From assembly GCA_039591175.1 (NCBI GenBank), contig JBDHED010000002.1, forward strand, positions 1 to 37,371: 37,371 nt of DNA, given 5' to 3'. Under the pieces are notes generated by a model, which ran no database searches, was not told where the DNA came from, and saw only the letters and a program-made list of their open reading frames with translations. The position numbers and the translations under genes are program-made. The DNA is from Gemmatimonadota bacterium. GTDB lineage: Bacteria; Gemmatimonadota; Gemmatimonadetes; JACCXV01; JAHWKZ01. This document shows, in pieces, positions 2,710 to 31,846 of the stretch. Position 1 is the stretch's first letter. Every line of letters begins with the position of its first letter.

Positions 2710-3807
2710 ATGACGATTTCTGGAGTCAGGCCGTTAGTCGAACGTGTTGTTGTTAGTGTGCTGTTGGTCGGGTTCTTGGCGGCCTGCTCTGATAACAGCA
2801 ATGGGCCAGCGGGTCCCGTTGGGACAACCGAGCCGGAAGCGCTCGACGTGGCCACCGCCAGTGCAGAGCTCAATCGTGTTGAGGTCGTATTTGCCGATGA
2901 AGACTGGGCGAGCTTCCGCGCGCTAAGCGTTCCGATCGACCTGGGCGACTTTGGGTTCTTGATCGAGCCGAGCACGTTGGAAGCACTGGTCGCATCGCCG
3001 ACACGGTCCGAGGCTCGGGCCGGAACTATTCGAGCGATCCGAGGATTGATCGACGGTGGTATCCATGCCGATCAACTGATCTCCGACAGTTCGCTCGGCA
3101 TGACGTTTGTCTACGATCCGGCTCAGAACAAGTACGTCGCTGATCCGTCGCGCACCGGTGCTCCGGCAAACGGGATCCGGTTGATCCTCTACGCGACGAC
3201 CTCAATCGGTGAGCCTGATGTCACGCAGGAATCGGGTCACGCTGATTTGAGTGACAACGGTGCAGGTGTGGATGGGATCGATCTCAGGTTCGAGGTCGTC
3301 AATGAAGGGCAGACGTTCCTCGATTACTCGGTTCGCGCCCAAGGCGACAACGGATCTGGCTCGATCGGTATCGAGGGCTTTGTTCAGGGTGATGACGATC
3401 GGCTCGACTTCGATCTGGCAGCCGAGGGTGATATCGGCGGGTTCGAGCTCGACGTTCAGGTCGAGAACGCGTCCAGCGATTTCCGCGTCGATGCATCGAT
3501 CGACGGTGAGATCGACGCGGGCGAGATCGGACTCGAAGTCCACTACGGGGACCAGTCGGTCACGATCGAGATCGAGGGGTCGGCTGATTCGCTGGAAGCG
3601 GAGTTCTATCTCAACGGCGAACTGTTCGCGACCGCCAGTGGAGATCCCGATGATCCTTCGATCTTGGGCGCCGATGGCGAACCACTGACACCGGAAGAGT
3701 TCCTGGTTCTTTTTCAGATCTACGATCTGGCCGAGGACCTGTTTACGCTGTTCGGCGATCTCACTGCCCCCGTGGGGTTGATCATTCTGTTGGGTATCCT
3801 CTTCTAA
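2710..3807 (+). CDS. Acidic lipoprotein of unknown function
   Basis: Strong RBS GAAGGAGGG upstream. Signal peptide with lipobox LAAC|S. The mature part is very rich in D/E/G with beta-like repeats, and the C-terminus is a short hydrophobic tail (VGLIILLGILF). Confidence 0.75.
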   Translation: MTISGVRPLVERVVVSVLLVGFLAACSDNSNGPAGPVGTTEPEALDVATASAELNRVEVVFADEDWASFRALSVPIDLGDFGFLIEPSTLEALVASPTRSEARAGTIRAIRGLIDGGIHADQLISDSSLGMTFVYDPAQNKYVADPSRTGAPANGIRLILYATTSIGEPDVTQESGHADLSDNGAGVDGIDLRFEVVNEGQTFLDYSVRAQGDNGSGSIGIEGFVQGDDDRLDFDLAAEGDIGGFELDVQVENASSDFRVDASIDGEIDAGEIGLEVHYGDQSVTIEIEGSADSLEAEFYLNGELFATASGDPDDPSILGADGEPLTPEEFLVLFQIYDLAEDLFTLFGDLTAPVGLIILLGILF

Positions 3808-11475: not shown

Positions 11476-11979
11476 TTAAGTCGGCTCGGAAAGCTCGAGC
11501 GTCATCCGGATATTGGAACGCTCGTACTCGTCGCCTTCGCCTAGGCGGGTCGTCTCAAATCCGTACTTCTCGTACAGCTTGATGGCTTTCCCCAGGACGG
11601 TGTTGGATTCGAGGAAGATCTGTTTTGCACGGCGCTCCCTGGCCCAGGCGATCATCGCATCCATCAAGAGGTTCCCCAAACCCTGCCCTTGAGCTGACGG
11701 GTGAACCGCCATCTTGGATAGCTCGTAGACTCGGTCATCGTGTTGGATGAGCGCGCACGTTCCTACGGCGTTGCCGTCTGTCAGGGCGAAGAAAACCTCC
11801 CCACCCCGGTCAACGATCGTGCCCTTGGGATCGCTCAACACCTGACGGTCGATGTCCTCGACCCAGAAGTGCTCTTCGATCCAGTCGAGATTGAGCGACT
11901 CGAATGCCGGTTGAAACTCGTCACGGTAGGTGATGATCTGAAAGCCTCTTGGAAACTGTGCGGTCGTGGAAGGGGTCAT
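11476..11979 (-). CDS. GNAT family N-acetyltransferase
   Basis: Acetyl-CoA binding motif QGQGLGNLLMDAMIAWA. I prefer ATG 11979 (167 aa, a typical GNAT size) over the TTG at 12060. Confidence 0.8.
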   Translation of the reverse strand: MTPSTTAQFPRGFQIITYRDEFQPAFESLNLDWIEEHFWVEDIDRQVLSDPKGTIVDRGGEVFFALTDGNAVGTCALIQHDDRVYELSKMAVHPSAQGQGLGNLLMDAMIAWARERRAKQIFLESNTVLGKAIKLYEKYGFETTRLGEGDEYERSNIRMTLELSEPT

Positions 11980-12081
11980 GACGAAAAGGTATCCTTCATT
12001 CGGATCGTGGCAAAAGCACCGGCCAAGCTCCGCGGGGCGCGTTAGGTTGATCTTCGTCAAACCTCAAGCAGGAGTAAGCCC

Positions 12082-12438
12082 ATGCCCATCCAGATGCGAT
12101 CTCGCACCATGTTGTTGGTCGTTGTTGTCGCCGCAGGCGCTGCTCTCGCTTCGGCGTGCCGTGGCACCATGTCGATCCAATCCTTGCTAGATGATCCTGG
12201 TCGCTACGAAGGCGAAACCGTTCGCGTGAAGGGTGAAGTGACCCGTGCCTTTGGTGCTTTGGGTCAGGGTGCCTACCGAATCAACGACGGTACAGGAACG
12301 ATGAACGTGGTGAGTCGGGAGTTGGGGGCTCCGCGGGAAGGCGCTGAGGTCGGTGTTGAGGGGACGTTTAGATCGGTGTTTACGTTCGGTGACGAGTCAG
12401 GCGCGGTTATTCTGGAGAAAGACCGTTTCGATCCCTGA
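12082..12438 (+). CDS. Small lipoprotein with an OB-fold-like domain
   Basis: RBS AGGAG 8 nt upstream. Lipobox LASAC|R. The pattern GETVRVKGEV..NDGTG is like BOF/OB-fold periplasmic proteins. Confidence 0.6.
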   Translation: MPIQMRSRTMLLVVVVAAGAALASACRGTMSIQSLLDDPGRYEGETVRVKGEVTRAFGALGQGAYRINDGTGTMNVVSRELGAPREGAEVGVEGTFRSVFTFGDESGAVILEKDRFDP

Positions 12439-13159
12439 GCGTCGAGACCACGCGACGAGCTGTTTCGAGTCGTTCTGGGTTGCCAATCTCGAGCCATAAC
12501 GCCGTGCTGACATCGTGCGGTAGGATACGATACCCCGTCCGGGCGAGTCGAAGATAGACGGGGATTATCGAGAACGCGCCGCGCTCACTGATCAAGTCGA
12601 AGATCTGCGGCGAAAGAACGTGAACCCCTGCGAACGGAATCGCGTGCTTCTCACCGCGCGCCTCGCGCGACGTTTTCGACTCGCCGGTTGATAGGTTAGC
12701 CCACCCGTACAGACCCCGATCGTCAAAAAGCAGACATCGAGCTGTCTCGCGGTGGTTGACTGCCAGCGTGGCCAACCGGTCGTCGGTGCGGTGAGCGTCG
12801 CTCATCGCCGCGAGATCGAGATCGGTGATGATATCGCCGTTGTACAGCACGAAGGGCTCGTCGCGCCGAAAAAGCGATGTTGCGTTTAACAAGCCACCCC
12901 CGGTTCCCAACGGTTGGTCGGGCTCGGCCGACAGCAGGATTTCCACTCCAAGGTCTTCTCGATCGAAGACGAAACGCTCTATCTGGTCGGCGTGATGATG
13001 GGTGTTGACGATGATACGATCGACCCCGGCTGCGGTCAGGTAACGGATGATTCGTTCGAGTATCGGAACGCCATCGACTTCGATCAGCACCTTTGGCATG
13101 TCGTCGGTAAACGGTCTCAGGCGGGTGCCGAGCCCGGCGGCGAGTACCATGGCGTCCAC
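12407..13159 (-). CDS. murU: Sugar-1-phosphate nucleotidyltransferase, MurU-like (N-acetylmuramate alpha-1-phosphate uridylyltransferase family)
   Basis: N-terminal motif LAAGLGTRLRPFTDDMPKVL. 250 aa. It lies immediately downstream of an AmgK-type kinase (6-nt gap). Confidence 0.7.
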   Translation of the reverse strand: MDAMVLAAGLGTRLRPFTDDMPKVLIEVDGVPILERIIRYLTAAGVDRIIVNTHHHADQIERFVFDREDLGVEILLSAEPDQPLGTGGGLLNATSLFRRDEPFVLYNGDIITDLDLAAMSDAHRTDDRLATLAVNHRETARCLLFDDRGLYGWANLSTGESKTSREARGEKHAIPFAGVHVLSPQIFDLISERGAFSIIPVYLRLARTGYRILPHDVSTALWLEIGNPERLETARRVVSTLRDRNGLSPE

Positions 13160-13164
13160 GAGCT

Positions 13165-14616
13165 CTAGCCCGCCGGAGTCGCTGCGACCCGCGGCCAGCT
13201 CGGCTCCTCGCGGTGGAGGAGTCGAACCCGAATTGCCGGGAACCGGACCTCGAGATGTTCCGCCATTTTCTCAGCCAGATACACCGAGCGGTGTTGTCCT
13301 CCCGTGCACCCAAAAGAGACGCTCAGGCTGGTGAAGCCCCGCTGCTCGTAGGCCTCGACATGGGCTTCGGTCAACGAGCGAGCGTTCTCCCAGAATGGCC
13401 CGAGCTCGCTGAGGCCGGCGATGTAGTCGGCGACTTCCGGATCGCGCCCGGTGAGCGCGACGTACTCCGGCAAACGACCCGGGTTTGTCAATCCCCGGCA
13501 GTCGAATACGAATCCTCCTCCGTGACCACCTAGATCTTGGGGATAACCGCGTCGATAGCTGAAGCTGTACACGTACACTGTGAGCCGAGAACTGTCCGGC
13601 TCGCTGCTGGCGTCACCCCACTCGGCGATGATGCTGCGCAAGACCCGCTCCATCTCCGGTAGTGGGACCGGCATGCCCTCATTCAGGATTCGTTCGATGT
13701 TTCGCGCCGCGTAGGGAACGCTCTGGAGAAAGCGCGGCTTGCGCTCGAAGAAACCACGGTAACCGTATGCTCCCAACGCCTGAAGGACCCGTACTAGCAC
13801 GTACCCATGATATCGCTCGAGGAATGCGGCTCGATCGAAATCGAGGTGTTGCCCCAGGGACGATAGGTAATGGTCCAGCAGCTCGGCCCGAACGGTCTCG
13901 GGGATGTCGGCTTTGGCGTCGTAGAGCAACGAGGCGATGTCGTATTGCAGCGCGCCACGACGGCCTCCCTGATAGTCGATAAACCACGGCTCGCCATCGC
14001 GAAGCATGATGTTTTGCGACTGAAAGTCGCGATACAGAAAGTGCTCGGTGTCGGCGGTGAGTAGGTACGTTGCCAATGCATCAAAGTCGTTCTCGAGCTT
14101 GGCTTCGTTGAATGGTATTTGCGCCAGCTTCAGAAAATGATACTTGAAGTAGTTGAGATCCCAGATGATCGATTGTTGGTCGAACGCGGCCCGCGGGTAA
14201 GCCACCGAATAGTCGACGATGTCGTCGCCGTCGACCTGGAAGCGCGGGAGGATCTCCACTACGCGGCGATATGCATCGAGGATCGCAGGGTCGAACTCAT
14301 GACCGCCCTCGCGGGCCTCCTGACGGGCTCGGAATAGCGTCGTATCGCCCAGGTCTTCGATCAGCCAGACGCCAGCCTCCTCATCATCGCCATAGAGCTC
14401 GGGCACCGGGAAACCAGCCCGGTTGAAGGCTCGCGAGAACGAGAGGAAGGCTCGGTTCTCTTCGTGGTCAGGTCCAAGCGCGCCGATCGCGGTACGCCCG
14501 TCGGGCGCCACCAATCGGTGATAGGTCCTCTCCGAACCGTCTGCCGCCACCGGCAGTACGGCCTCGGGTCGGGCACCGAAGTGGTTCTCGAAGAGAGTTA
14601 TGAGTCGGGTCTGCAT
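13165..14616 (-). CDS. Fusion protein: AmgK-like anomeric amino-sugar kinase (APH fold) plus RapZ C-terminal domain
   Basis: N-terminal roughly 330 aa: APH/AmgK motifs YRDFQSQNIML and FIDYQGGRRGALQYDIASLLYD. C-terminal roughly 140 aa: RapZ-CTD motifs SFSYRRGYP, FVFDCRGLTNPGR, LTGRDPEVADYI and FGCTGGQHRSVYLAEKMAEHL. Confidence 0.8.
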   Translation of the reverse strand: MQTRLITLFENHFGARPEAVLPVAADGSERTYHRLVAPDGRTAIGALGPDHEENRAFLSFSRAFNRAGFPVPELYGDDEEAGVWLIEDLGDTTLFRARQEAREGGHEFDPAILDAYRRVVEILPRFQVDGDDIVDYSVAYPRAAFDQQSIIWDLNYFKYHFLKLAQIPFNEAKLENDFDALATYLLTADTEHFLYRDFQSQNIMLRDGEPWFIDYQGGRRGALQYDIASLLYDAKADIPETVRAELLDHYLSSLGQHLDFDRAAFLERYHGYVLVRVLQALGAYGYRGFFERKPRFLQSVPYAARNIERILNEGMPVPLPEMERVLRSIIAEWGDASSEPDSSRLTVYVYSFSYRRGYPQDLGGHGGGFVFDCRGLTNPGRLPEYVALTGRDPEVADYIAGLSELGPFWENARSLTEAHVEAYEQRGFTSLSVSFGCTGGQHRSVYLAEKMAEHLEVRFPAIRVRLLHREEPSWPRVAATPAG

Positions 14617-14682
14617 TAGCGATCGATCAAAGGGGCCCCCTAAAACCCGAGAGGCCTCTCCGACACAACAGTGGCTCGCTTT

Positions 14683-17111: not shown

Positions 17112-19952
17112 ATGAGCAAGCCGATAGCAAAACCGAGAGTGACCTCGGACGAGGAAGTGGAGAAGAGGGGCACGAGATGGATTTGGTCTTTCGCGGAGGG
17201 CGACGGAAAGAACAAGCGCCTACTTGGAGGAAAGGGCGCCAACCTCTGCGAGATGACCCAGATCGGGATCAACGTACCGCCGGGCTTTGTCGTCACCACG
17301 GAGGCCTGCCTCGCATATCTGGAATCTCCGCAGGGTGACCTGCCGCATGGGGTCATGGAGCAGGCGCGGGACGAGATGGCACGGCTCAAAGCGGCGACCG
17401 GAAAGGATTTTGGAAACCCCGACGATCCGCTGTTGGTCTCGGTGCGCTCTGGGTCCGCCCTGTCCATGCCGGGGATGATGGACACTATCCTCAATCTTGG
17501 TCTCAACGAGCAGAGCCTCGCCGGGCTGATCGCGCAAACCGGCGATCGGCGGTTCGGCTACGACGCGTATCGCCGGCTCATCCAACTGTTTGGCAAAGTC
17601 GCTTTTGGCATTCCGGACGAAAAGTTCGATGAACAGTTCGAGTCGGTGAAGGAGCTGGCGGGCGTGGAGTCCGATGTGGATCTCCAGGCCGAGGATCTCG
17701 AGGAAATAGTCCGCCGCTTCCTTCAGGTGGTGCGTAAGCAGACGGGCCGCCCATTCCCGAGTGATCCCTATGAACAACTTGAGATCGCGATCAAGGCCGT
17801 CTTTGGTTCCTGGATGGGGCGGCGGGCGGTCGAGTACCGACGTGAGTTCGGGATCACGTCCGAGATGGCCCACGGAACGGCGGCCAACGTCGTCGCGATG
17901 GTCTTCGGCAACATGGGGCCGGACAGCAGTACGGGGGTCGCCTTCACCCGTGACCCCGGGACCGGGGAGAACGCTCTGTACGGTGAGTACCTGGTGAACG
18001 CTCAGGGCGAGGATGTGGTGGCCGGGATTCGAACCCCCAAACCGATTCGGCAGATGGCTGAGGAAATGCCAGACATGTACGAGCAGCTGCTGGAGCTGCG
18101 CAGGAAGCTCGAAGAGCATTACCGCGAGGTGCAGGACTTCGAGTTCACGAACGAGCGCGGCATCCTCTACTGCCTGCAGACGCGCAACGGGAAGATGAAT
18201 GCGGTCGCGCGGGTCAAGACCTCAGTCGAAATGGTCGAGGAACGTTTGATCGATCGGGACGGCGCGCTTTTACGCGTGACCCCGGACGACCTCGAGCAGA
18301 TCCTATACCCCAGGATCGATCCCAGCTTTGAAGGCAACCCTCTCACGACCGGGCTCGGGGCTTCGCCGGGTGCAGCCTGCGGGCAGGTCATTTTTGACGC
18401 GGATCGGGCCCAGTTGCTGGGGCGACAGGGTGTCAACGTGATCCTGGTGCGCCAAGAGACGAAACCGGAGGACATCCATGGTTTTTTTGCAGCCCAGGGG
18501 ATTCTCACGAGTCGTGGCGGAGGGACCTCCCATGCCGCGGTTGTCGCTCGCGGAATGGGCAAGCCGTGCGTCGTCGGAGCTGAAGGGCTCATGGTGGACG
18601 AGGATCGCGCCCAAGCGATAAGCGCCGACGTCGTAGTGAAGGAGGGCGACACTATCACGATCGACGGCGCGGCCGGTCACATCTACCTGGGTGACGTACC
18701 TACCGTCGAGGCCGAGTTCTTCGACGAGCTGGACACGCTGTTGGCCTGGGCCGATGGCGCGGCCCGGCTCCAGGTGATGGCCAACGCCGACACGCCCGAG
18801 GACGCGTTGCGAGCGCTCAACTACGGAGCGATGGGCATCGGGCTCTGTCGCACCGAGCGGATGTTCAATGCGCCTGAGCGCCTCCCGATCGTGGTCGACA
18901 TGATCATCGCGGAGGACGACGAGCAACGAGCGGCAGCGCTCGGACGGTTGCTGCCGATGCAGCGGGCCGACTTTCGGGGGATCTTTGAGGCGATGTCCCC
19001 CCGACCGGTGATCATCCGATTGCTGGACCCGCCGATCCACGAGTTTCTTCCAGCGCGGGCGCGCCTGGAGGAGGAAATCGACCAGCTCCACCGGCTCCGA
19101 GACGCGTTGCGCGGGATGGACGTGCTGACGAGCACCATGAAGTCTCTGGAGGATCGAGCCTCCAAGACCGATGCCGGATTGTCGGACGCCGCTAGAGAGC
19201 TGGTAGACGTGCGACGCGTCGACCGCGTGATCGCACGCAAGGAGGCGATGCTGCGACGCTCTCAGGAGCTTCGTGAGACCAACCCGATGCTGGGACACCG
19301 AGGGGTGCGTCTCGGGCTCACCTATCCCGAGATCTACAAGATGCAGGTGAGAGCCGTGCTCGAGGCCGCGGCTGAGTGCTTGAAGGAAGGCGTTCGGGTG
19401 CGCCCGGAGATTATGGTCCCGCAGGTGTGCACGTCACAGGAACTGAAGCGGGTGAAGGAGTACGTGGAGGAAGCGGAAGCCGAGGTGCGCAAAGAGTACG
19501 GCGTGGCGGTCGACTTCGCGTTTGGCACGATGATCGAGGTGGTCCGCGCTTGCCTGCGTGCCGAGAGCCTGGCCGAGGTCGCGGATTTCTTCTCCTTCGG
19601 CACTAACGACCTGACACAAGCCGCCTTCTCCTTCAGTCGCGAGGACGCCGAGACGAAGTTCTTACCGCTCTACAACGATCGAGAGATCTTGCAGGACAAC
19701 CCGTTCGAGGTCCTGGACCGTATGGGCTTGGGTCGACTGATGGCGCTCACGGTGGAGTGGGGGAGATCGAAGCAGCCCGACCTGGAGGTCGGGATCTGCG
19801 GTGAGCACGGCGGCCACCCGGACTCCATCCGCTTCTGTCATGAGATCGGGCTCGACTACGTCTCCTGTTCGCCGCCACGCATCCCAGTGGCCCGCCTGGC
19901 CGCGGCGCACGCGAACGTCGGAACAGCCGCTACGTCGTCACCGACTCGGTGA
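17112..19952 (+). CDS. ppdK: Pyruvate, phosphate dikinase
   Basis: LLGGKGANLCEM, VSVRSGS..SMPGMMDT, catalytic-His region TSRGG(G)TSHAAVVARGMG, and C-terminal FFSFGTNDLTQ, CGEHGG. ATG 17112 has GGAG 5 nt upstream. Confidence 0.95.
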   Translation: MSKPIAKPRVTSDEEVEKRGTRWIWSFAEGDGKNKRLLGGKGANLCEMTQIGINVPPGFVVTTEACLAYLESPQGDLPHGVMEQARDEMARLKAATGKDFGNPDDPLLVSVRSGSALSMPGMMDTILNLGLNEQSLAGLIAQTGDRRFGYDAYRRLIQLFGKVAFGIPDEKFDEQFESVKELAGVESDVDLQAEDLEEIVRRFLQVVRKQTGRPFPSDPYEQLEIAIKAVFGSWMGRRAVEYRREFGITSEMAHGTAANVVAMVFGNMGPDSSTGVAFTRDPGTGENALYGEYLVNAQGEDVVAGIRTPKPIRQMAEEMPDMYEQLLELRRKLEEHYREVQDFEFTNERGILYCLQTRNGKMNAVARVKTSVEMVEERLIDRDGALLRVTPDDLEQILYPRIDPSFEGNPLTTGLGASPGAACGQVIFDADRAQLLGRQGVNVILVRQETKPEDIHGFFAAQGILTSRGGGTSHAAVVARGMGKPCVVGAEGLMVDEDRAQAISADVVVKEGDTITIDGAAGHIYLGDVPTVEAEFFDELDTLLAWADGAARLQVMANADTPEDALRALNYGAMGIGLCRTERMFNAPERLPIVVDMIIAEDDEQRAAALGRLLPMQRADFRGIFEAMSPRPVIIRLLDPPIHEFLPARARLEEEIDQLHRLRDALRGMDVLTSTMKSLEDRASKTDAGLSDAARELVDVRRVDRVIARKEAMLRRSQELRETNPMLGHRGVRLGLTYPEIYKMQVRAVLEAAAECLKEGVRVRPEIMVPQVCTSQELKRVKEYVEEAEAEVRKEYGVAVDFAFGTMIEVVRACLRAESLAEVADFFSFGTNDLTQAAFSFSREDAETKFLPLYNDREILQDNPFEVLDRMGLGRLMALTVEWGRSKQPDLEVGICGEHGGHPDSIRFCHEIGLDYVSCSPPRIPVARLAAAHANVGTAATSSPTR

Positions 19953-21513
19953 GACTCTGTTGTGGGTCTTCCTCTGAACGGATACCCTGCCAGCAAGAAT
20001 GAGGATTAAAGCGCAGGCTGTTCGTCGCCGTCAAGCCGTGGGACCACTGCCCGTCCTCCGTTAGCATGACCGGCTCACTGTTTGGCCCGAGTGGCCGGGA
20101 GCGCTCTCGGGCTCCGGTGATGACCTTCAGTTTTTCGGCGTCGAAACCCATCAGTTGGGTTGCACACCAATCGACCGATAGCGGGTTGTGCCCGGCGACA
20201 ATGGTACCGCTTTCCATGGGCGTCGGATTCATAGGCCCCTCACCCGCACCCCCGAGGATCCCGTCCAGAATGCTGAAGTAACGCCGGACGGGCGCATCTT
20301 GCAGCTGGCCCTCTCGGTCACAGTACAGGAGGATGGTGTTGAGATCTACGACCATGCGCCAACAAGTGTCATTACCCCACCAGTTTCCGTCTCGGATATT
20401 GCTGCCCAGCATGAAGCTGTAGAAGCGCTCGATCATCTTCTGGTTATGACCTGGGTGCGTCGTTGAGCTGTAGTGCTCAGCGTAGTACTTCTCGCCTCTG
20501 GGCTCCGGCAAAAGAGCGAGGAACCGTCGCAAGAGTGGGACGGCAAAACTCTCAGCTCGTGCCAACACTAGGTCGATGCCCGCACGAATCAGCCACTGCC
20601 GGGTCTTCTGTGTCCAGCCAGTTCTGTCCGGAAACTCGTCGCCGCCCTGAGCCGGCATGCCGATGCGATAGTGGGGCAGGAAGTTTTTGTCGACGTTGAT
20701 GCCGACGAGGTTTTTCATGCTCAGGGTGACACCCGTTTTCTTGTGCGTTTTGAGTTTACCCACGCAGAGTACAGCGTCGGCATCGAGGATATGCTGGCTC
20801 ACGCGGTACTCGTGACGGCCCCCGGTGTGATGCCGACGCGTAGTCTTGCGGTCGTAGTCGGCTCCGCCGACACGATGCATCAGATGCTCAACGTCACCAA
20901 ACGCGCTGGCCTGACCGACATCGACCACACGGCTAGCAGCCAATTGATCGGGATTGTAGCGTCGGCTAATCACCGCGCCGTCTCGTTGTACAACCGAGAG
21001 AAGACGCATGTCGATGAGACCGACATCATGCCCGTGTTCCTGATAGAACTGCAACAGTTCGTCGAGTTGACAGAGGCGTCTGATCTCATCAAAATCCGCA
21101 TCCTTCAAGGGAGCATCAGCGATTATCACGGTTCCCGCCGAGCCGGTGGCCTTTAGTGCGTAGTCTATTACCGCGCGAAGCACCGAACTGTGTGTCACGA
21201 CGCTGTCGTACGTCAGGTCAGAAAAGTGGGCATGGAGGACATAGTTCGGCTTCACCACGACCCGGTCACCCGGGCGTATGATGTCGCACAAGGGGTTCCA
21301 ATCAGCTGTTCCGTAATGAGTCGCATCGAGTTGCAGTAGACGGAAGCTATCGCGAACAGCGGTGTAGACGTGGTTCGGTTCGCTGCTGACGAAGTTCCGA
21401 AAGGCGTACTCGGGAAACGCAGTGTCCGGATGAAAGGGGGCCAGCGCGGGATAAACAGCCTCCCTCGCGCGTACGACCCCTACGTGAGGATCGAGGAGTG
21501 AGCTAGAATGCAT
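19930..21513 (-). CDS. DUF362 domain protein with a long C-terminal extension
   Basis: DUF362 hallmarks: GDRVVVKPN.., ADAP.., and KLKTHKKTGVTLSMKNLVG. ATG 21513 has an AGGAG upstream. The longer track ORF (to 21846) would overlap the divergent gene. The 3' end overlaps the ppdK 3' end by 23 nt. Confidence 0.75.
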   Translation of the reverse strand: MHSSSLLDPHVGVVRAREAVYPALAPFHPDTAFPEYAFRNFVSSEPNHVYTAVRDSFRLLQLDATHYGTADWNPLCDIIRPGDRVVVKPNYVLHAHFSDLTYDSVVTHSSVLRAVIDYALKATGSAGTVIIADAPLKDADFDEIRRLCQLDELLQFYQEHGHDVGLIDMRLLSVVQRDGAVISRRYNPDQLAASRVVDVGQASAFGDVEHLMHRVGGADYDRKTTRRHHTGGRHEYRVSQHILDADAVLCVGKLKTHKKTGVTLSMKNLVGINVDKNFLPHYRIGMPAQGGDEFPDRTGWTQKTRQWLIRAGIDLVLARAESFAVPLLRRFLALLPEPRGEKYYAEHYSSTTHPGHNQKMIERFYSFMLGSNIRDGNWWGNDTCWRMVVDLNTILLYCDREGQLQDAPVRRYFSILDGILGGAGEGPMNPTPMESGTIVAGHNPLSVDWCATQLMGFDAEKLKVITGARERSRPLGPNSEPVMLTEDGQWSHGLTATNSLRFNPHSCWQGIRSEEDPQQSLTESVTT

Positions 21514-21636
21514 CGAGCAATGAGCTCCTTTTCTGTGATCGTGTCCAGCGCTCAATATGGATGTGGTGGCCAGCGGACTCAAGCACGGTGGGTCCATCAC
21601 ATCGGACGGAATCAGTATGAGCACCGAGGTTGATCT

Positions 21637-22677
21637 GTGAACGGTTTGGCGGGGATCGACTGGGCGCCGCCCGGCAATTGGCGTCGGCTCACGACGATCG
21701 AAGCGCACACGGCCGGCGAGCCACTGCGCGTTGTGACCGGGGGCTTCCCCGAACTCCCGGGCGATACGATTCTCGCCAAGCGTCGCCACGCCCGCGAGCA
21801 CTACGACGATCTTCGAAAAACTCTGGTCCTGGAACCTCGGGGTCACGCCGATATGTACGGATGCGTGCTAACCCCGCCCGTGACACCGGATGGCGACGTC
21901 GGCGTATTGTTTTTTCACAACGAAGGGTTCAGCACGATGTGCGGTCATGGGATTATTGGGCTCGTCAAGGTCGGGCTGGATTGTGGTCTGATTGACGCGG
22001 ACGAAAAAGGTCGAATCCGGATCGATACGCCAGCGGGGAGGGTGTCAGCGTCGGCGTCGATCAAAAACGGCCGCGTAGTAGGTGTTTCGTTTCTCAACGT
22101 ACCTTCGTTCGTAATGGCGCTAGACGAAGTCGTCGATGTCGAGTCGCTGGGCCAAGTCCGTTTTGACGTGGCGTTCGGAGGCGCGTTCTATGCATACGTC
22201 GACGCTCCGTCGGTTGGACTTGAGCTCGGTCGAGGAAACACGCCCGAGATCATCGAGGCCGGTATGCGAATCAAGCGTGCAGTAGCAGACCGTCAGCTGA
22301 TCCGTCATCCGAGGGGCGAGCCCGATCTCGATTTCCTGTACGGGACGATCTTCGTTGAGCGGATCGAGGCGCGTGACGTCCATAGTCGTAACGTCTGCGT
22401 GTTCGCCGACGGTGAGGTCGATCGTTCGCCCACCGGCACGGGCGTCAGCGGTCGCGCCGCGATCCATCACGCGCGCGGGGAGCTGCCGACCGACGAGTGG
22501 ATCACGATCGAGAGTCTCATCGGAACGCAGTTCCAGGTTCGAGTTTATGAGACAACCGAAGTTGCCGGTGTTCCAGCCGTGGTGCCGGAAGTGCGCGGAA
22601 CGGCCCATATCACGGGCAGGAACGAGTTCTTGGTCGACCCCGACGATCCGCTGGCCGGGGGATTTCTACTGCGATAG
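21637..22677 (+). CDS. Proline racemase superfamily enzyme with a Cys/Thr catalytic pair, i.e. trans-3-hydroxy-L-proline dehydratase type
   Basis: IEAHTAGEPLRVV, first catalytic Cys in STMCGHG, and Thr replacing the second catalytic residue in DRSPTGTG. Confidence 0.8.
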   Translation: MNGLAGIDWAPPGNWRRLTTIEAHTAGEPLRVVTGGFPELPGDTILAKRRHAREHYDDLRKTLVLEPRGHADMYGCVLTPPVTPDGDVGVLFFHNEGFSTMCGHGIIGLVKVGLDCGLIDADEKGRIRIDTPAGRVSASASIKNGRVVGVSFLNVPSFVMALDEVVDVESLGQVRFDVAFGGAFYAYVDAPSVGLELGRGNTPEIIEAGMRIKRAVADRQLIRHPRGEPDLDFLYGTIFVERIEARDVHSRNVCVFADGEVDRSPTGTGVSGRAAIHHARGELPTDEWITIESLIGTQFQVRVYETTEVAGVPAVVPEVRGTAHITGRNEFLVDPDDPLAGGFLLR

Positions 22678-28538: not shown

Positions 28539-31142
28539 ATGACCAGTCACGAACTGCGCCAGCGATTCCTCGATTTCTTCGTCGCCAACGGCCACGAGCT
28601 GGTAGCCTCGGCGCCGCTTGTGCCCGAGGACGATCCGACGCTGTTGTTTGTGAACGCGGGCATGGTGCCGTTCAAGGATGTCTTTACCGGCCAGCGCGTG
28701 GTCGATTACGCGCGCGCAGTGTCGTCACAGAAGTGCCTCCGCGTATCGGGCAAGCACAACGACTTCGAAAACGTGGGGTATACGCCCCGCCACCATACGT
28801 TCTTTGAGATGCTCGGCAATTTTTCGTTTGGCAACTACTTCAAGCGCGAGGCGATCGCACTTGCGTGGGAGTTCCTCACCGAAGATCTCAAACTGCCGGC
28901 GGATCGACTTTGGGCCAGCGTCCACGAGAGCGACGATGAGGCGGCTGATCTCTGGCCCGAAGTCACCGGAATCCCCGCGGAGCGGGTCCTTCGGATGGGG
29001 GACAAGGACAACTTCTGGGCAATGGGCGACACGGGCCCGTGTGGGCCTTGTTCGGAGATCTTCTGGGACTTTGGTCCCGAGCACGGTACGGGAACGCCAG
29101 CTGACAACGAGGACCGGTACCTCGAGATCTGGAACCTGGTGTTTATGCAGTTCGAGAGCCGGGCCGATGGCACGCGGATCGATCTGCCGCGGCCGTCCGT
29201 GGACACGGGGATGGGGTTGGAACGGCTCGCGGCCGTCGTTCAAGATGTGTACTCGAACTACGACAGCGATCTGTTCACACCCTTGCTCGCAACGATCGCA
29301 GCAAAGACCGATCAGACGTACGAGCCCGACACCGATGTTGGTGTCTCTTTTCGGGTTCTCGCCGATCACGGCCGAGCGGCGGCGTTCCTGATTGGGGACG
29401 GCGTCTATCCGACCAACGAGGGCCGCGGTTACGTGCTGAGGCGGATCATCCGCCGAGCCGTGCGACACTACTGGATGCTCGACGTTCATCGGCCGGTGCT
29501 CCACGAGGTCATCCCAACGGTTGTTGCGGAGATGGGCGTGTCGTTCCCGGAGCTGTCAACTCACGAACAACAGATCCGCGTGATCCTCGAAGCCGAGGAA
29601 GAGCGTTTTCTCCAAACGATCGATCAGGGGATGGAGATTCTGGACAAGGTTCTGGCGACCACGCCGGCAGGTACCGACGTTCCTGGCGACGACGTCTTTA
29701 CTCTTTATGACACCTACGGTTTTCCACCCGACCTGACCGAACTGATCGCCAGAGAGCGCGGTCATGGTGTCGATGACGAAGGCTATCAGAAGCGTATGAT
29801 GGAGCAGCGCGAGAGGGCTCGCAAAGCGAGCGGTTTTGAAACGGCAGCCGTCGACGCTGTAGGTCGGAAGCTAGAGGCGGACTCGAAATTCGTCGGCTAC
29901 GATCAGCTCAAGGTCGACACGACCATCGAACACGTTGAACCGGACGGTGACCGTCTCCGGTTGGTTCTGCGCGAGAACCCATTCTACGCGACTGGTGGTG
30001 GGCAGGTGGCCGATACCGGCGTGATCGATGGGGAAGGGTTTGGGCTCGCTGTCTTTGACGTCGAGCGGCACGGGGAGGTGTTCGTGCCCGTGGCCGAGGT
30101 TGTCGAGGGTGATACCGGCAAGGTCGTCGTTGGTGCGCCGGTACGCGCGATGGTGGACGAAGCACAGCGTCGTGACACCGAGCGCCATCACACGGTGACG
30201 CACGTGATTCACGCGATCCTACGCGATCGACTCGGGGAGCACGTGCGACAGGCAGGCTCACTGGTCGAGCCCGATCGCATGCGATTTGATTTCTCACACC
30301 CCAAGGCACTCACGCCGCAGGAGATCGACATGATCGAGGACGAGGCCAACGCATGGGTCTTATCCGATCTGCCGGTCGATAAGGAGATCATGCCGTTTGA
30401 CGACGCCAAGTCACGTGGCGCGATCGCACTGTTTGGCGAGAAGTATGGCGAGCGAGTGCGAGTTGTTGCGATCGGTGACGATGAGTCGGTCGAGCTGTGC
30501 GGGGGTTGTCATGTCGCACGAACGGGTGAGATCGGAGCGGTCAAGATCGTGTCCGAGTCGAGCGTCGCCGGTGGCGTCCGGCGTCTCGAGGTGGTGACCG
30601 GTTTTCGTGCACTCAAGGAGTTCAGGCAGGCCGAACGGGTACTTGCCGAAGCTGCCCAACGGCTCAAGGTGTCCCAAAATGAGTTGCCGACCCGGATCGA
30701 TCGGCTGCTTGAAGAGAAGCGCGAGATCGAAAAGCGTTTCGAGGCTGCTCGACGCCAGGCGATGCAGGGTGGGGCGAGCGGACTCGTCCAGCGGTCGACG
30801 ACTGTGAATGACTTCGAGGTGGTGACGCTCCGGGCCGAACCCGTCTCGATGGACGATTTGCGCACGATCGGTGACACCGTTCGTGAACAACTCACCTCGG
30901 GGGTCGGGGTTATTGGCGCCTCGCTGGAGGGCAAGGCCAACCTGCTGACGGTCGTCACCGACGATCTGATCGAAGCCGGCACGCTCGACGCGCCCCGCGT
31001 GATTGGCGAACTGGCGCCGCTGATTGGCGGCCGTGGCGGAGGCAAGAAACACATGGCGCAGGCCGGTGGAAAGGACATCGAGAAGATCGATGCGGTGCTC
31101 GAGCGGGCGCCCGAGATCATCGCTTCGCTGGTTCGCGGTTGA
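28539..31142 (+). CDS. alaS: Alanine--tRNA ligase
   Basis: Full-length class II AlaRS: FVNAGM, RVSGKHNDFENVG, FFEMLGNFSFG, editing-domain HTVTH..CGG.H, and C-terminal DHHA1-like GG(R)GGGK. Confidence 0.97.
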   Translation: MTSHELRQRFLDFFVANGHELVASAPLVPEDDPTLLFVNAGMVPFKDVFTGQRVVDYARAVSSQKCLRVSGKHNDFENVGYTPRHHTFFEMLGNFSFGNYFKREAIALAWEFLTEDLKLPADRLWASVHESDDEAADLWPEVTGIPAERVLRMGDKDNFWAMGDTGPCGPCSEIFWDFGPEHGTGTPADNEDRYLEIWNLVFMQFESRADGTRIDLPRPSVDTGMGLERLAAVVQDVYSNYDSDLFTPLLATIAAKTDQTYEPDTDVGVSFRVLADHGRAAAFLIGDGVYPTNEGRGYVLRRIIRRAVRHYWMLDVHRPVLHEVIPTVVAEMGVSFPELSTHEQQIRVILEAEEERFLQTIDQGMEILDKVLATTPAGTDVPGDDVFTLYDTYGFPPDLTELIARERGHGVDDEGYQKRMMEQRERARKASGFETAAVDAVGRKLEADSKFVGYDQLKVDTTIEHVEPDGDRLRLVLRENPFYATGGGQVADTGVIDGEGFGLAVFDVERHGEVFVPVAEVVEGDTGKVVVGAPVRAMVDEAQRRDTERHHTVTHVIHAILRDRLGEHVRQAGSLVEPDRMRFDFSHPKALTPQEIDMIEDEANAWVLSDLPVDKEIMPFDDAKSRGAIALFGEKYGERVRVVAIGDDESVELCGGCHVARTGEIGAVKIVSESSVAGGVRRLEVVTGFRALKEFRQAERVLAEAAQRLKVSQNELPTRIDRLLEEKREIEKRFEAARRQAMQGGASGLVQRSTTVNDFEVVTLRAEPVSMDDLRTIGDTVREQLTSGVGVIGASLEGKANLLTVVTDDLIEAGTLDAPRVIGELAPLIGGRGGGKKHMAQAGGKDIEKIDAVLERAPEIIASLVRG

Positions 31143-31846
31143 ACCAGGCGCGCCCGCCCGAGGTCGACTCGTTTGCGGTGGCACTCAGCGAGTGGCTGAC
31201 CAGTTTCACGATGCCTGAATCGCTGGCCGGCGAGATGGCCAACGTCTGTTCTGGCGGTGCGCCGTGGCCAGCCGCGATCGGCGGCTCAGCGGTACGACGG
31301 TCCGGGTGGGGGGACGCTGAGTCGCTGGTCTGGGGCATCGCCGTCGGGGGGTTGGCCGGTGGGTTGGAAGGCGCCAGCACCAGCCTCGGGACGGGTGTGG
31401 ATGTGGGGCGGACGCCCGGCACGGCGGTCGACGGCGCGGCCGGCACGCTGCTCGCGGCGGATGGCTTGGTGGCCGCCGCTCACGAGGCGTTGGGGTCGCT
31501 CAGCCCGGATCGGCTCGAGATCGTGATGAGCGCGCTGGACGAGGAGTTTGGTGACGGTGGACCGTGGGGGAGGCTGGGCCAGGTTGGTGGCTTGGCTTGG
31601 CCGGTCATCGTGCCGTTGGCGTTGATGCCAGCTGCCCGCACCGATCCGCAGGGTCCCTGGACTGACTACGCGAACGCTTGGCGTGGTGTCTATGGCTCGC
31701 GAGGCCCGACCGGAGCGACCGGGGATTCGAGCTCCCTGTGGAACCACCCAGCCGCCGATGACGCAACGCGCTCCCTGATGCAGGCGGCGACCGATGAAGC
31801 GCGCACCGTGCAAGCCGAACTCGCGGCGCGGTTGGAGGCGCGCTAG
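31139..31846 (+). CDS. Hypothetical Gly/Ala/Trp-rich protein (uncertain gene)
   Basis: 235-aa ORF. Its TTG start overlaps the alaS TGA, and third codon positions are GC-rich. I recognise no family. Its end overlaps the lptG end by 4 nt. Confidence 0.45.
   Translation: MNQARPPEVDSFAVALSEWLTSFTMPESLAGEMANVCSGGAPWPAAIGGSAVRRSGWGDAESLVWGIAVGGLAGGLEGASTSLGTGVDVGRTPGTAVDGAAGTLLAADGLVAAAHEALGSLSPDRLEIVMSALDEEFGDGGPWGRLGQVGGLAWPVIVPLALMPAARTDPQGPWTDYANAWRGVYGSRGPTGATGDSSSLWNHPAADDATRSLMQAATDEARTVQAELAARLEAR

What the first reader, a model, noticed from the sequence alone, without database searches (positions are those of the whole stretch)
13165..14616. AmgK-type amino-sugar kinase fused to the RapZ C-terminal (sugar-phosphate/sRNA-binding) domain
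The N-terminal two thirds carry the APH-fold motifs of the MurNAc/GlcNAc anomeric kinase AmgK. The gene is followed, after a 6-nt gap, by a MurU-like uridylyltransferase, which is the classic peptidoglycan-recycling bypass pair. The last roughly 140 aa are an unmistakable RapZ C-terminal domain (FDCRGLTNPGR.., GCTGGQHRSVYLAE). In enterobacteria this domain tetramerises, binds the GlmZ sRNA and senses GlcN6P to control glmS. Here the P-loop half of RapZ is replaced by a different kinase that acts in the same amino-sugar metabolic area. That suggests a feedback-sensing or RNA-binding module attached directly to a cell-wall sugar salvage enzyme. I cannot tell from memory whether this architecture has been characterised. 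The LysM/BON protein Kbp lies immediately upstream on the same strand.
Basis: partly seen in the sequence, partly recalled or inferred. Interest (0 to 1): 0.7.

Follow-up and report, generated by a model that had tools for sequence, protein, structure and literature searches.

The report
Cell-wall sugar kinase carrying RapZ domain
This gene encodes a cell-wall sugar salvage kinase with the C-terminal domain of the RNA-adaptor protein RapZ permanently attached; this is the standard form of the kinase in at least six bacterial phyla, databases often mislabel it "RNase adapter RapZ", and it offers a new way to find out what the RapZ domain does chemically.

Summary
Window 13165-14616 (-) is one uninterrupted 483-aa ORF. 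It has an APH-fold kinase (aa 1-333), an 11-aa linker and a RapZ C-terminal domain (aa 345-470; Pfam PF22740 E 2e-30; model 1.6-1.9 A from E. coli RapZ-CTD). A MurU-like uridylyltransferase follows after 5 nt.

It is not an assembly artefact. The same architecture occurs in thousands of proteins and in over 600 genome hits across Gemmatimonadota, Acidobacteriota, Bacteroidota, Ignavibacteriales, Elusimicrobia and Verrucomicrobiota. The MurU gene lies directly downstream in 67 of 83 loci, and some Bacteroidales fuse all three domains.

Tannerella forsythia, one of the few organisms where the AmgK-MurU route is experimentally shown, has this fused kinase (45% identical) next to its MurU gene.

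The RapZ domain keeps its phosphate-binding loop (C-T-G-G-x-H-R-S, 100% conserved) and is the most conserved part of the protein. It lacks the P-loop half, the basic RNA-binding tail and most RNA-contact residues.

Best reading: a phosphosugar-binding, possibly catalytic, module built into the salvage kinase, not an RNA adaptor. I found no paper linking RapZ and AmgK. Verdict: new variant of a known kind, moderate interest.

The parts
13165..14616 (-). Complete gene for the 483-aa fused kinase-RapZ_C protein (stop codon included)
   Evidence: ORF list; Pfam APH plus RapZ_C; full-length AlphaFold model with pLDDT 95.3 and pTM 0.86
13618..14616 (-). APH-fold anomeric sugar kinase domain, aa 1-333 (AmgK type)
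   Evidence: PF01636 at aa 21-258. AmgK models are the only NCBIfam kinase hits. 3csv aligns over aa 21-326 and is the top Foldseek hit at TMt 0.73.
14011..14034 (-). Kinase catalytic loop YRDFQSQN (aa 195-202). R196, D197, Q199 and N202 are invariant in 122 family members.
   Evidence: Alignments A1 and A2; coordinates verified
13969..13980 (-). Metal-binding IDYQ motif (aa 213-216). D214 and Q216 are invariant.
13585..13617 (-). Variable 11-residue interdomain linker (aa 334-344)
   Evidence: pLDDT 74-85; highest entropy in the alignment and 9% median identity
13207..13584 (-). RapZ C-terminal domain (aa 345-470), the most conserved part of the protein
   Evidence: PF22740 E 2.2e-30. TM 0.88 and rmsd 1.8 A to 5o5s. 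18.3% of its columns are at least 98% conserved, against 6.0% in the kinase.
13285..13311 (-). Phosphate-binding loop GCTGGQHRS (aa 436-444), equivalent to E. coli RapZ G246-S254 (the sulphate/malonate pocket). It has the C-x5-R-S pattern.
   Evidence: C, G, H, R and S are 100% conserved and T and G 99% in 122 members. Pocket residues are defined in PMC5737377 and PMC9841335.
13477..13506 (-). FDCRGLTNPG (aa 371-380). It holds the conserved D372 and R374, a second family-specific invariant Cys (C373; Val183 in E. coli), and Gly380 in place of E. coli His190.
13513..13533 (-). Family-specific Gly-rich loop LGGHGGG (aa 362-368). It is a 5-residue insertion relative to E. coli RapZ. G368 is invariant and G366 and G367 are at least 90% conserved.
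   Evidence: Gap in the E. coli alignment; conservation
13168..13206 (-). Short, non-basic, poorly conserved C-terminal tail (aa 471-483, EPSWPRVAATPAG). It sits where E. coli RapZ has its basic RNA-binding tail.
   Evidence: pLDDT about 61; median tail net charge in the family is 0; the E. coli K281, R282 and K283 columns are empty
12407..13159 (-). MurU-like sugar-1-phosphate uridylyltransferase, 250 aa, 5 nt downstream. It is the conserved operon partner.
   Evidence: NTP_transferase Pfam hit. The best NCBIfam match is MurU at 137 bits. The best PDB hits are MurU 8hhd (1e-27) and 4y7t (6e-27). It lies directly downstream in 67 of 83 loci. It is 43% identical to the T. forsythia neighbour.

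Best explanation
**What it is.** The gene encodes the form of the peptidoglycan-salvage anomeric kinase AmgK used outside the Proteobacteria. Its partner is the co-transcribed MurU-type uridylyltransferase.

**Pathway (inferred from orthology and synteny).**
- The N-terminal APH-fold domain phosphorylates salvaged MurNAc, and possibly GlcNAc, at C1 using ATP.
- MurU then converts the sugar-1-phosphate to the UDP-sugar.
- This feeds cell-wall synthesis without MurA/MurB.

**The RapZ_C domain (shown by sequence and model).**
- It is a constant part of this enzyme, rigidly packed against the kinase.
- It keeps the anion-binding loop that binds sulphate, malonate, RNA phosphate and probably GlcN6P in E. 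coli RapZ.
- It has lost the P-loop partner domain, the basic tail and most RNA-contact residues.

**What the domain most likely does (inferred).**
- It is a phosphosugar or nucleotide-sugar binding site, not an RNA adaptor.
- One option is that it couples kinase activity to the level of a pathway metabolite, as feedback or feed-forward control.
- The other is that it holds or chemically handles the phosphosugar between the kinase and MurU.
- It probably also dimerises the enzyme, as the E. coli CTD does.

**My split for the CTD role.**
- Regulatory ligand sensor: about 0.4.
- Catalytic or hand-over role: about 0.25.
- Mainly structural or dimerising: about 0.2.
- RNA-related: 0.1 or less.
For: **Architecture.**
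- Both domains pass profile thresholds.
- The full-length model has pLDDT 95.3 and pTM 0.86, which implies a fixed interdomain geometry.
- The CTD matches E. coli RapZ-CTD at TM 0.88 and rmsd 1.8 A.

**Conservation of the fusion.**
- Thousands of proteins share it. There are 845 representative clusters at E<=1e-30, with full-length matches down to 36% identity.
- There are 598 confirmed genome hits in Gemmatimonadota, Acidobacteriota, Bacteroidota, Ignavibacteriales, Elusimicrobia, Opitutaceae and Eremiobacteraceae.

**Coupling to MurU.**
- The MurU-like gene is directly downstream in 67 of 83 loci, and no other neighbour is conserved.
- Natural triple fusions kinase-RapZ_C-NTP_transferase exist in at least 8 representative clusters and in locus L039.
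- The partner's best solved relatives are the two MurU structures.

**Link to experiment.**
- T. forsythia encodes a 477-aa member (WP_014224875.1) followed after 5 nt by a 246-aa NTP_transferase.
- The window proteins are 45% and 43% identical to that pair.
- The AmgK-MurU pathway is reported for T. forsythia, and its AmgK and MurU work in E. coli.

**CTD function.**
- The loop C437-T-G-G-x-H442-R443-S444 is 99-100% conserved. D372, R374, N378 and P379 are at least 99% conserved.
- The CTD is the most constrained region of the protein.
- The E. coli literature places sulphate, malonate, RNA phosphate and probably GlcN6P in this pocket. It also reports that C247S is inactive and that GlcN6P appears chemically transformed there.
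Against: - No biochemical data exist for this protein, and none exist for the role of the CTD in any fused member.
- I could not read the primary T. forsythia AmgK paper (Hottmann 2021). Equating the published Tf-AmgK with WP_014224875.1 is therefore an inference from synteny, not a verified identity.
- The kinase and MurU-like proteins score far below NCBI's curated AmgK and MurU cutoffs. The T. forsythia pair does too. Substrate specificity could therefore differ from MurNAc.
- One E. coli pocket residue, H190, is essential there and is Gly here. The pocket also carries a family-specific Cys and a Gly-rich insertion, so the ligand may not be GlcN6P.
- Three RNA-contact residues (K170, R184, R196) are retained as K/R, so nucleic-acid binding is not fully excluded.
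Confidence: 0.72

Rival explanations
1. The RapZ_C domain is a catalytic, Cys-dependent phosphosugar phosphatase or phosphotransfer module. It would dephosphorylate or relocate the phosphate of MurNAc-6-P (or GlcN6P), so that the attached kinase can make the 1-phosphate. That would replace the HAD phosphatase MupP of the Pseudomonas pathway.
For: - The loop has a C-x5-R-S pattern (GCTGGQHRS), and the Cys, His, Arg and Ser are 100% conserved.
- There is a second family-specific invariant Cys (C373) and a near-invariant Asp (D372) next to the pocket.
- The CTD is more conserved than the kinase domain, as expected of a catalytic site.
- In E. coli, C247S is inactive. The authors suggest a catalytic role for the thiol and saw GlcN6P 'chemically transformed' in the CTD crystal.
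- In triple fusions the domain sits between the kinase and MurU.
Against: - The CTD model has no fold similarity to LMW-PTP, ArsC, PTP or PTS-EIIB. Every significant hit is RapZ, so the resemblance is a local motif only.
- No enzymatic activity of any RapZ_C domain has been demonstrated in the papers I could read.
- I could not test whether MupP is absent from these genomes.
- No HAD phosphatase or AnmK gene is linked to the locus either way.
Confidence: 0.15
2. The domain is mainly a structural dimerisation or scaffold module. It assembles the kinase into oligomers, or docks MurU, without binding a small-molecule effector.
For: - The E. coli RapZ-CTD forms tight dimers on its own.
- The high pTM of 0.86 suggests rigid packing on the kinase.
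- Triple fusions show that physical coupling of kinase and MurU is advantageous.
Against: A purely structural role does not explain 100% conservation of the anion-pocket residues C437, H442, R443 and S444 across at least six phyla, while surface and linker positions vary freely.
Confidence: 0.1
3. The protein is a genuine RapZ-like RNA adaptor. Its CTD binds a regulatory RNA, as the database name 'RNase adapter RapZ' implies, and links cell-wall sugar salvage to RNA decay.
For: - The fold and anion pocket that contact the GlmZ backbone in E. coli are retained.
- K170, R184 and R196 equivalents remain basic in 76-100% of members.
Against: - The basic tail (K270, K281-K283) needed for RNA binding is absent.
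- K194 becomes E, R238 becomes F, K251 becomes Q, and K203 and R211 are variable. The essential H190 is Gly in 98% of members.
- The CTD pI is 6.2 here and 7.3 as the family median, against 9.3 in E. coli.
- There is no P-loop NTD to build the RapZ tetramer.
- The score against the RapZ equivalog model is 97 bits against a cutoff of 244.
- The window has no Rfam family.
- Even canonical YvcJ of B. subtilis has no evidence of RNA binding.
Confidence: 0.05
4. The fusion is an artefact: a frameshift or misassembly has joined two separate genes.
For: None found.
Against: The same single ORF, with a short linker, is found in thousands of independent assemblies. These include complete genomes and cultured strains such as T. 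forsythia 92A2 and KS16, Phocaeicola plebeius DSM 17135 and Alloprevotella rava DSM 22548.
Confidence: 0.01

Closest known systems
AmgK-MurU peptidoglycan recycling shortcut (Pseudomonas putida and P. aeruginosa, Legionella, Caulobacter, Tannerella forsythia)
   Same: - It has an APH-fold kinase with an intact catalytic loop, immediately followed by a MurU-type uridylyltransferase.
- AmgK is the only curated kinase family hit.
- MurU structures are the best solved relatives of the partner.
- The pair is 45% and 43% identical to the T. forsythia gene pair.
   Different: - Proteobacterial AmgKs are single-domain proteins of about 38-39 kDa. This one has an extra, highly conserved RapZ_C domain of about 125 aa.
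- Sequence similarity to the proteobacterial models is low: 64 bits against cutoffs of 500-550.
- I could not verify whether published work on T. forsythia AmgK mentions the extra domain.
RapZ (YhbJ) of Escherichia coli, the RNase E adaptor for the sRNA GlmZ and a GlcN6P sensor
   Same: - The C-terminal domain fold matches (TM 0.88, rmsd 1.8 A, 35% identity).
- The anion-binding loop C-T-G-G-x-H-R-S and the D-x-R...N-P motif are conserved.
- Both proteins belong to amino-sugar and cell-envelope precursor metabolism.
- In both, the domain follows a kinase-fold domain.
   Different: - It has no P-loop N-terminal domain. An unrelated APH/protein-kinase-like fold takes its place.
- It has no basic C-terminal tail, and most RNA-contact basic residues are lost.
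- H190 is replaced by Gly.
- It has an extra invariant Cys and a Gly-rich insertion.
- The CTD is near-neutral.
- The genomic context is murU, not the rpoN-ptsN-npr operon.
YvcJ (Bacillus subtilis, Enterococcus) and Rv1421 (M. tuberculosis), the canonical RapZ homologues outside the enterobacteria
   Same: - They are RapZ_C-containing proteins with no evidence of RNA binding.
- They are tied functionally to UDP-GlcNAc and cell-wall precursor supply, and their molecular role is unknown.
   Different: - They keep the P-loop NTD and are encoded with glmR (yvcK).
- The present family swaps the NTD for an AmgK-type kinase and is encoded with murU.
3csv, a putative aminoglycoside phosphotransferase of Silicibacter sp. 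TM1040 (structural genomics)
   Same: - It is the closest solved structure to the kinase half (E 4e-21; Foldseek TMt 0.73).
- It is itself AmgK-like, scoring 255 bits on NF045698.
   Different: It is a stand-alone kinase of 333 aa with no RapZ_C domain.

Membership tests
RapZ_C domain (Pfam PF22740) | Profile match above the gathering threshold | tested here: met
   105.8 bits against a cutoff of 27, E 2.2e-30, aa 346-470 covering profile positions 2-119 of 121
RapZ_C domain (Pfam PF22740) | Same three-dimensional fold as the solved E. coli RapZ-CTD | tested here: met
   The CTD-only model (pLDDT 92.4) matches 5o5s at TMt 0.88, rmsd 1.8 A and 36% identity. All 15 significant PDB hits are RapZ.
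RapZ_C domain (Pfam PF22740) | Anion (sulphate/malonate/GlcN6P) pocket residues H190, T248, G249, H252 and R253, plus C247 | tested here: inconclusive
   C247, T248, G249, H252 and R253 are conserved at 99-100% in 122 members. H190, which is essential in E. coli, is Gly in 98%. The pocket is retained but remodelled.
RapZ, RNase adapter (NCBIfam NF003828 equivalog) | Full-length match above the curated cutoff | tested here: not met
   96.8 bits against a cutoff of 244. Only profile positions 145-277 match.
RapZ, RNase adapter (NCBIfam NF003828 equivalog) | N-terminal P-loop (Walker A) kinase-like domain | tested here: not met
   No Walker A motif in 0 of 122 family members. The N-terminal 333 aa are APH fold.
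RapZ, RNase adapter (NCBIfam NF003828 equivalog) | Basic C-terminal RNA-binding tail (K270, K281, R282, K283) and a basic CTD surface | tested here: not met
   The tail is absent or neutral. K194, R238 and K251 are lost, and K203 and R211 are variable. pI is 6.2 against 9.3.
RapZ, RNase adapter (NCBIfam NF003828 equivalog) | Cognate GlmY/GlmZ sRNAs and RNase E recruitment | not testable with these tools
   The 37-kb window has no Rfam family. The rest of the genome is not available.
AmgK (anomeric MurNAc/GlcNAc kinase) | APH / protein-kinase-like fold with an intact catalytic loop and metal-binding Asp | tested here: met
   PF01636. YRDFQSQN and IDYQ are invariant. Foldseek top hits are APH-family small-molecule kinases.
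AmgK (anomeric MurNAc/GlcNAc kinase) | Score above the NCBIfam equivalog cutoffs (NF045759 at 550, NF045698 at 500) | tested here: not met
   64.3 and 63.4 bits. The T. forsythia orthologue also scores only 68.6, so the models do not cover this clade.
AmgK (anomeric MurNAc/GlcNAc kinase) | Operon partnership with a murU-type uridylyltransferase | tested here: met
   The gap is 5 nt in the window. MurU-like is directly downstream in 67 of 83 loci. Natural fusions exist.
AmgK (anomeric MurNAc/GlcNAc kinase) | Orthology to an experimentally validated AmgK | tested here: inconclusive
   It is 45% identical over 455 aa to T. forsythia WP_014224875.1, which sits next to the MurU-like gene. The pathway is validated in T. 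forsythia. I could not confirm that the published Tf-AmgK is this accession.
AmgK (anomeric MurNAc/GlcNAc kinase) | ATP-dependent phosphorylation of MurNAc or GlcNAc at C1 | not testable with these tools
   This needs an enzyme assay.
MurU (downstream gene 12407-13159) | Minimal sugar-1-P nucleotidyltransferase closest to solved MurU | tested here: met
   8hhd E 1e-27 and 4y7t E 6e-27, against 6e-19 for the next family. MurU is also the best NCBIfam hit.
MurU (downstream gene 12407-13159) | Score above the NCBIfam equivalog cutoffs (250 and 370) | tested here: not met
   136.9 and 120.3 bits. The T. forsythia neighbour scores 133.4 and 113.4.
Cys-dependent phosphatases (PTP, LMW-PTP, ArsC) - considered for the CTD | C-x5-R-(S/T) phosphate-binding loop | tested here: met
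   C437-T-G-G-Q-H-R443-S444. This is a direct sequence reading and is invariant.
Cys-dependent phosphatases (PTP, LMW-PTP, ArsC) - considered for the CTD | Shared fold with PTP, LMW-PTP or ArsC | tested here: not met
   No such structure appears among the Foldseek hits, and nothing non-RapZ scores below E 0.08. It is not a member of these families.

The most novel reading that the evidence does not exclude
RapZ_C may be, ancestrally, an amino-sugar-phosphate-handling enzyme domain that always works with a kinase-fold partner: a P-loop kinase in RapZ/YvcJ, and an APH kinase here. In this family its invariant C-x5-R-S loop, with the second Cys and an Asp, would dephosphorylate or relocate the phosphate of MurNAc-6-P. 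The fused protein would then convert MurNAc-6-P to MurNAc-1-P, replacing MupP. The Bacteroidales triple fusions would be three-step MurNAc-6-P to UDP-MurNAc enzymes. Binding of GlmZ by enterobacterial RapZ would then be a late exaptation of a phosphosugar pocket.
Probability: 0.12. Interest if true: 0.85.

Novelty: new variant of a known kind. Interest (0 to 1): 0.55.

Why it matters
1. **An open question becomes testable.** The biochemical function of the RapZ C-terminal domain outside the enterobacterial GlmY/GlmZ circuit is unknown; the molecular role of YvcJ is 'not characterized'. Here the same domain, with its anion pocket intact, is hard-wired to an enzyme with a known reaction and an assayable partner, in organisms that are cultivable and genetically tractable (T. 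forsythia, Phocaeicola plebeius). Kinase kinetics can be compared with and without the CTD, with and without candidate ligands, and with pocket mutants.

2. **It supports an evolutionary reading.** Two unrelated kinase folds sit in front of the same domain. This suggests that RapZ_C cooperates with phosphotransfer in amino-sugar metabolism, and that RNA binding is derived.

3. **It exposes a systematic annotation error.** Thousands of these salvage kinases, including the T. forsythia protein, are named 'RNase adapter RapZ' or 'GlmZ(sRNA)-inactivating NTPase'. The curated AmgK and MurU models miss the whole clade. As a result, peptidoglycan-recycling capacity is under-called in Bacteroidota, Acidobacteriota and Gemmatimonadota.

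4. **It bears on a practical tool.** T. forsythia AmgK and MurU are used to label peptidoglycan metabolically. An unrecognised regulatory or catalytic domain in that kinase could affect how the tool behaves.

Tried and rejected
- **Frameshift or misassembly.** Rejected, because the single ORF is conserved in thousands of assemblies and in cultured strains.
- **Functional link to the upstream LysM/BON (Kbp) gene.** Rejected. The neighbour differs in every other context examined, and no gene other than MurU recurs. A GC palindrome plus TTTT lies in the 66-nt spacer.
- **GlmY/GlmZ or glmS-ribozyme elements in the window.** None found.
- **Promoter and terminator scan.** Matches were at chance level and uninformative.
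- **Locus tag, size or domain description of the published T. forsythia AmgK.** The primary papers (Hottmann 2021; Wodzanowski 2022, PMC9464701; PMC6167743; PMC11513787; Luciano 2009, PMC2648190) are not held. The papers that are held do not give it.
- **One wasted literature query.** It was swamped by taxon names. The repeat found only 3 irrelevant papers with RapZ plus Bacteroid*.
- **Interdomain geometry.** Model coordinates are not exposed, so I could not check where the pocket sits relative to the kinase active site.
Full report
**1. The observation**

The ORF at 13165..14616 on the minus strand is real, uninterrupted and 483 aa long.
- Pfam places an APH phosphotransferase domain at aa 21-258 (E 4e-10).
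- Pfam places a RapZ C-terminal domain (PF22740) at aa 346-470, with E 2.2e-30 and 105.8 bits against a gathering score of 27.
- Against NCBIfam, the protein matches only the C-terminal half of the RapZ equivalog model (profile positions 145-277; 97 bits against a cutoff of 244). The only kinase families hit are the two AmgK models, at about 64 bits against cutoffs of 550 and 500.
- Against the PDB by sequence, the N-terminal 326 residues match the AmgK-like kinase 3csv (E 4e-21). Residues 344-465 match E. coli RapZ 159-275 (E 3e-14).

The gene is followed by TAG-agctc-GTG. The transferase's best curated and solved relatives are MurU. The upstream gene is a LysM/BON protein that passes the PRK11198 cutoff.

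**2. It is not an artefact, and it is not rare**

- All 120 listed hits of three independent homology searches carry both Pfam domains at about 470-590 aa.
- An exhaustive search of 1.84 billion cluster representatives gave 9,620 hits, 845 of them at E<=1e-30. The best 150 are almost all single-stretch, full-length matches down to 36% identity.
The best 80 cover:
  - Gemmatimonadota (the window's own lineage, 65% identity);
  - many Acidobacteriota/Terriglobales;
  - Bacteroidota: Bacteroidales, Chitinophagaceae, Sphingobacteriales and Prolixibacteraceae, with cultured strains such as Phocaeicola plebeius DSM 17135, Alloprevotella rava DSM 22548 and Huijunlia imazamoxiresistens;
  - Ignavibacteriales, Elusimicrobia, Opitutaceae and Eremiobacteraceae.
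- Sources name these proteins inconsistently: 'aminoglycoside/choline kinase family phosphotransferase', 'phosphotransferase', 'RapZ C-terminal domain-containing protein' or 'RNase adapter RapZ'.

**3. Anatomy**

An AlphaFold2 model built on 122 diverse members is very confident (mean pLDDT 95.3). Its pTM of 0.86 implies that the two domains adopt one fixed arrangement rather than tumbling independently. The domain borders are:

| Part | Residues | Window coordinates |
|---|---|---|
| Kinase | 1-333 | 13618-14616 |
| Linker (variable, lower confidence) | 334-344 | 13585-13617 |
| RapZ_C | 345-470 | 13207-13584 |
| Tail (short, non-basic, poorly conserved) | 471-483 | 13168-13206 |

Coordinates were verified. 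Foldseek finds APH-family small-molecule kinases for the first part (3csv, corramycin phosphotransferase, PsiK, methylthioribose kinase) and RapZ for the second. No PDB entry combines the two. A CTD-only model (pLDDT 92.4) superposes on E. coli RapZ-CTD at 1.6-1.9 A (TM 0.88 to 5o5s, 35-36% identity), and all 15 significant hits are RapZ.

**4. The functional partner**

- The only conserved neighbour is the MurU-like gene. It lies directly downstream on the same strand in 67 of 83 loci, with gaps from -45 to +300 nt.
- Clustering of all ORFs in 84 loci found no other recurrent gene. The remaining clusters are antisense or overlapping-frame artefacts, or occur in 8 loci or fewer.
- The LysM/BON neighbour of the window is replaced by a GntR regulator, DUF2911 or a peptidase elsewhere.
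- At least eight representative clusters (712-760 aa, one from Muribaculaceae) and locus L039 (a Bacteroidaceae MAG) are natural triple fusions in the order kinase, RapZ_C, NTP_transferase. This is classic gene-fusion evidence that all three parts act in one process.
- The window's transferase matches the two solved MurU enzymes at E about 1e-27. The next family, mannose-1-P guanylyltransferase, scores 6e-19, and LicC scores 8e-10.

**5. The link to experiment**

- Tannerella sp. has the same gene pair.
- T. forsythia itself, in strains 92A2/ATCC 43037 and KS16, encodes a 477-aa member. Its accessions are AEW21661.1, WP_014224875.1 and UniRef100_G8ULJ5. It is named 'phosphotransferase enzyme family', 'GlmZ(sRNA)-inactivating NTPase' or 'RNase adapter RapZ'.
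- That gene is followed after 5 nt by a 246-aa NTP_transferase.
- The window proteins are 45% identical (455 aa, E 3e-137) and 43% identical to that pair.
- T. forsythia lacks MurA/MurB and depends on MurNAc salvage through AmgK and MurU. Its AmgK and MurU confer MurNAc-probe incorporation on E. coli. A 2026 eLife paper lists it among the few species where the pathway has been observed.

I could not read the primary paper, so equating the published Tf-AmgK with WP_014224875.1 is an inference from synteny. It is a strong inference.

The T. forsythia pair scores essentially the same as the window pair against NCBI's curated models: AmgK 69 against 64 bits, and MurU 133 against 137 bits. Missing those cutoffs therefore reflects models trained on proteobacteria, not a different function. 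The characterised proteobacterial AmgKs are single-domain proteins of 38-39 kDa.

**6. What the RapZ domain retains and what it has lost**

I mapped E. coli residues onto 122 family members.

Retained:
- The anion-binding loop is essentially invariant: C247, G250, H252, R253 and S254 at 100%, and T248 and G249 at 99%.
- S166, D182, R184, N188, P189, G200 and H276 are also conserved.

Changed or lost:
- H190, whose H190A substitution abolishes E. coli RapZ function, is Gly in 98% of members.
- V183 is an invariant Cys.
- A 5-residue Gly-rich insertion (GNGGG) precedes the FDCR strand.
- Of the eight basic residues that contact GlmZ in the cryo-EM structure, three stay basic: K170 (88% K/R), R184 (100%) and R196 (76%). 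Five are lost: K194 becomes E, R238 becomes F (91%), K251 becomes Q (78%), and K203 and R211 are variable.
- The basic tail required for RNA binding (K270 and K281-K283) is missing. In the triple fusions the chain runs straight into MurU about 10 residues after the invariant His.

Other measures:
- The CTD is near-neutral: pI 6.2 here and 7.3 as the family median, against 9.3 for E. coli.
- No member has a Walker A motif.
- The CTD is the most constrained part of the protein. 18.3% of its columns are at least 98% conserved, against 6.0% in the kinase. Its median identity is 50%, against 39% for the kinase.

**7. Mechanism**

Shown:
- A complete AmgK-type kinase with an intact active site.
- A rigidly attached RapZ_C domain with an intact but remodelled phosphate pocket.
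- Obligatory pairing, and occasional fusion, with MurU.
- Loss of the RNA-binding determinants.

Inferred:
- The protein is the anomeric MurNAc(/GlcNAc) kinase of the salvage shortcut.
- The CTD binds a phosphosugar or nucleotide sugar of the same pathway.

The E. coli literature supports a small-molecule role for this pocket. It binds sulphate and malonate. The CTD alone binds GlcN6P. RNA phosphate and the metabolite are predicted to compete for the pocket. [quoted passage not shown] Outside the enterobacteria, YvcJ has no evidence of RNA binding and is linked to UDP-GlcNAc through GlmR, and the NTD of Rv1421 binds UDP-GlcNAc.

I therefore favour a ligand-sensing role that tunes the kinase. 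A catalytic or hand-over role is a serious second, given the extreme conservation, two invariant cysteines and the C-x5-R-S pattern. A purely structural role comes third. The Cys-phosphatase analogy is only a local motif, because the fold search finds no PTP, LMW-PTP, ArsC or EIIB relative.

**8. Comparison with what is known, and novelty**

- The system works like the AmgK-MurU shortcut, and by orthology it almost certainly is one.
- The protein is not a RapZ. It fails the equivalog score, lacks the P-loop domain and lacks the RNA-binding tail.
- It is a genuine carrier of the RapZ_C domain.
- The architecture is visible in domain databases and in NCBI product names.
- In the searchable literature, no paper contains both 'RapZ' and 'AmgK'. 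Only three unrelated papers contain RapZ together with any Bacteroid* term.

I therefore class it as a new variant of a known kind: a widespread, unremarked elaboration of a known enzyme. It also gives a lead on the unresolved function of the RapZ domain and exposes a systematic misannotation.

**9. Limits**

- There is no biochemistry for this protein.
- I did not test whether these genomes also carry a canonical RapZ or a MupP phosphatase.
They agree with the residue numbers quoted in the papers.

Noticed in passing
P0579 / WP_014224875.1 (T. forsythia), P0592 (Parabacteroides sp. AM08-6), and many Gemmatimonadota, Chitinophagaceae and Bacteroidales entries: There is a systematic annotation problem. 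Members of this fused kinase family are named 'RNase adapter RapZ' or 'GlmZ(sRNA)-inactivating NTPase', although they lack the P-loop domain and the RNA-binding tail. The curated NCBIfam AmgK and MurU models miss the whole clade, including the T. forsythia pair.
   Followed up: yes
window 14617-14682 (minus strand), the spacer between the LysM/BON gene and the kinase gene: The 66-nt spacer contains a GC palindrome (GAGAGGCCTCTC) followed by GGGTTTT. This may be a weak terminator, which would make the LysM/BON gene a separate transcription unit. The consensus terminator scan did not call it.
   Followed up: partly
window 12082-12438 (+) against 12407-13159 (-): A convergent 118-aa ORF with a signal-peptide-like N-terminus and a faint OB-fold hit (E 0.01) overlaps the 3' end of the MurU-like gene by 32 nt. 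A GNAT acetyltransferase (11476-12060, -) lies just beyond it.
   Followed up: no
L052 and L056 (bins labelled Acutalibacteraceae) and L065 (labelled Bdellovibrionales): Full-length fused genes about 41-43% identical to the window protein, with the MurU gene downstream, occur in bins assigned to Firmicutes and Bdellovibrionota. This could be mis-binning or horizontal transfer.
   Followed up: no
window 19930-21846 (-): A 638-aa protein whose only Pfam hit is DUF362 (aa 335-563). The N-terminal half is unannotated.
   Followed up: no
window 31001-32000: There is a local GC peak of 0.69, against about 0.60 for the rest of the window. It lies at the end of the alaS gene, where an ORF at 31139-31846 begins, just upstream of the LptF/LptG pair (31843-34370, -).
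   Followed up: no
window 2710-3807 (+): A 365-aa ORF with no Pfam family at E<=1e-5.
   Followed up: no
loci L001-L084, antisense to the kinase gene: A 'family' of ORFs of about 138 aa recurs in 64 loci. It lies on the opposite strand inside the conserved kinase gene. It is an artefact of high GC content and strong conservation, not a gene.
   Followed up: partly
P0128 (624 aa), P0161 (345 aa) and P0237 (390 aa): A few close relatives appear to have the kinase part without a RapZ_C hit. They may be fragments, frameshifts or genuine CTD-less variants, and would be worth checking as natural 'deletion' controls.
   Followed up: no
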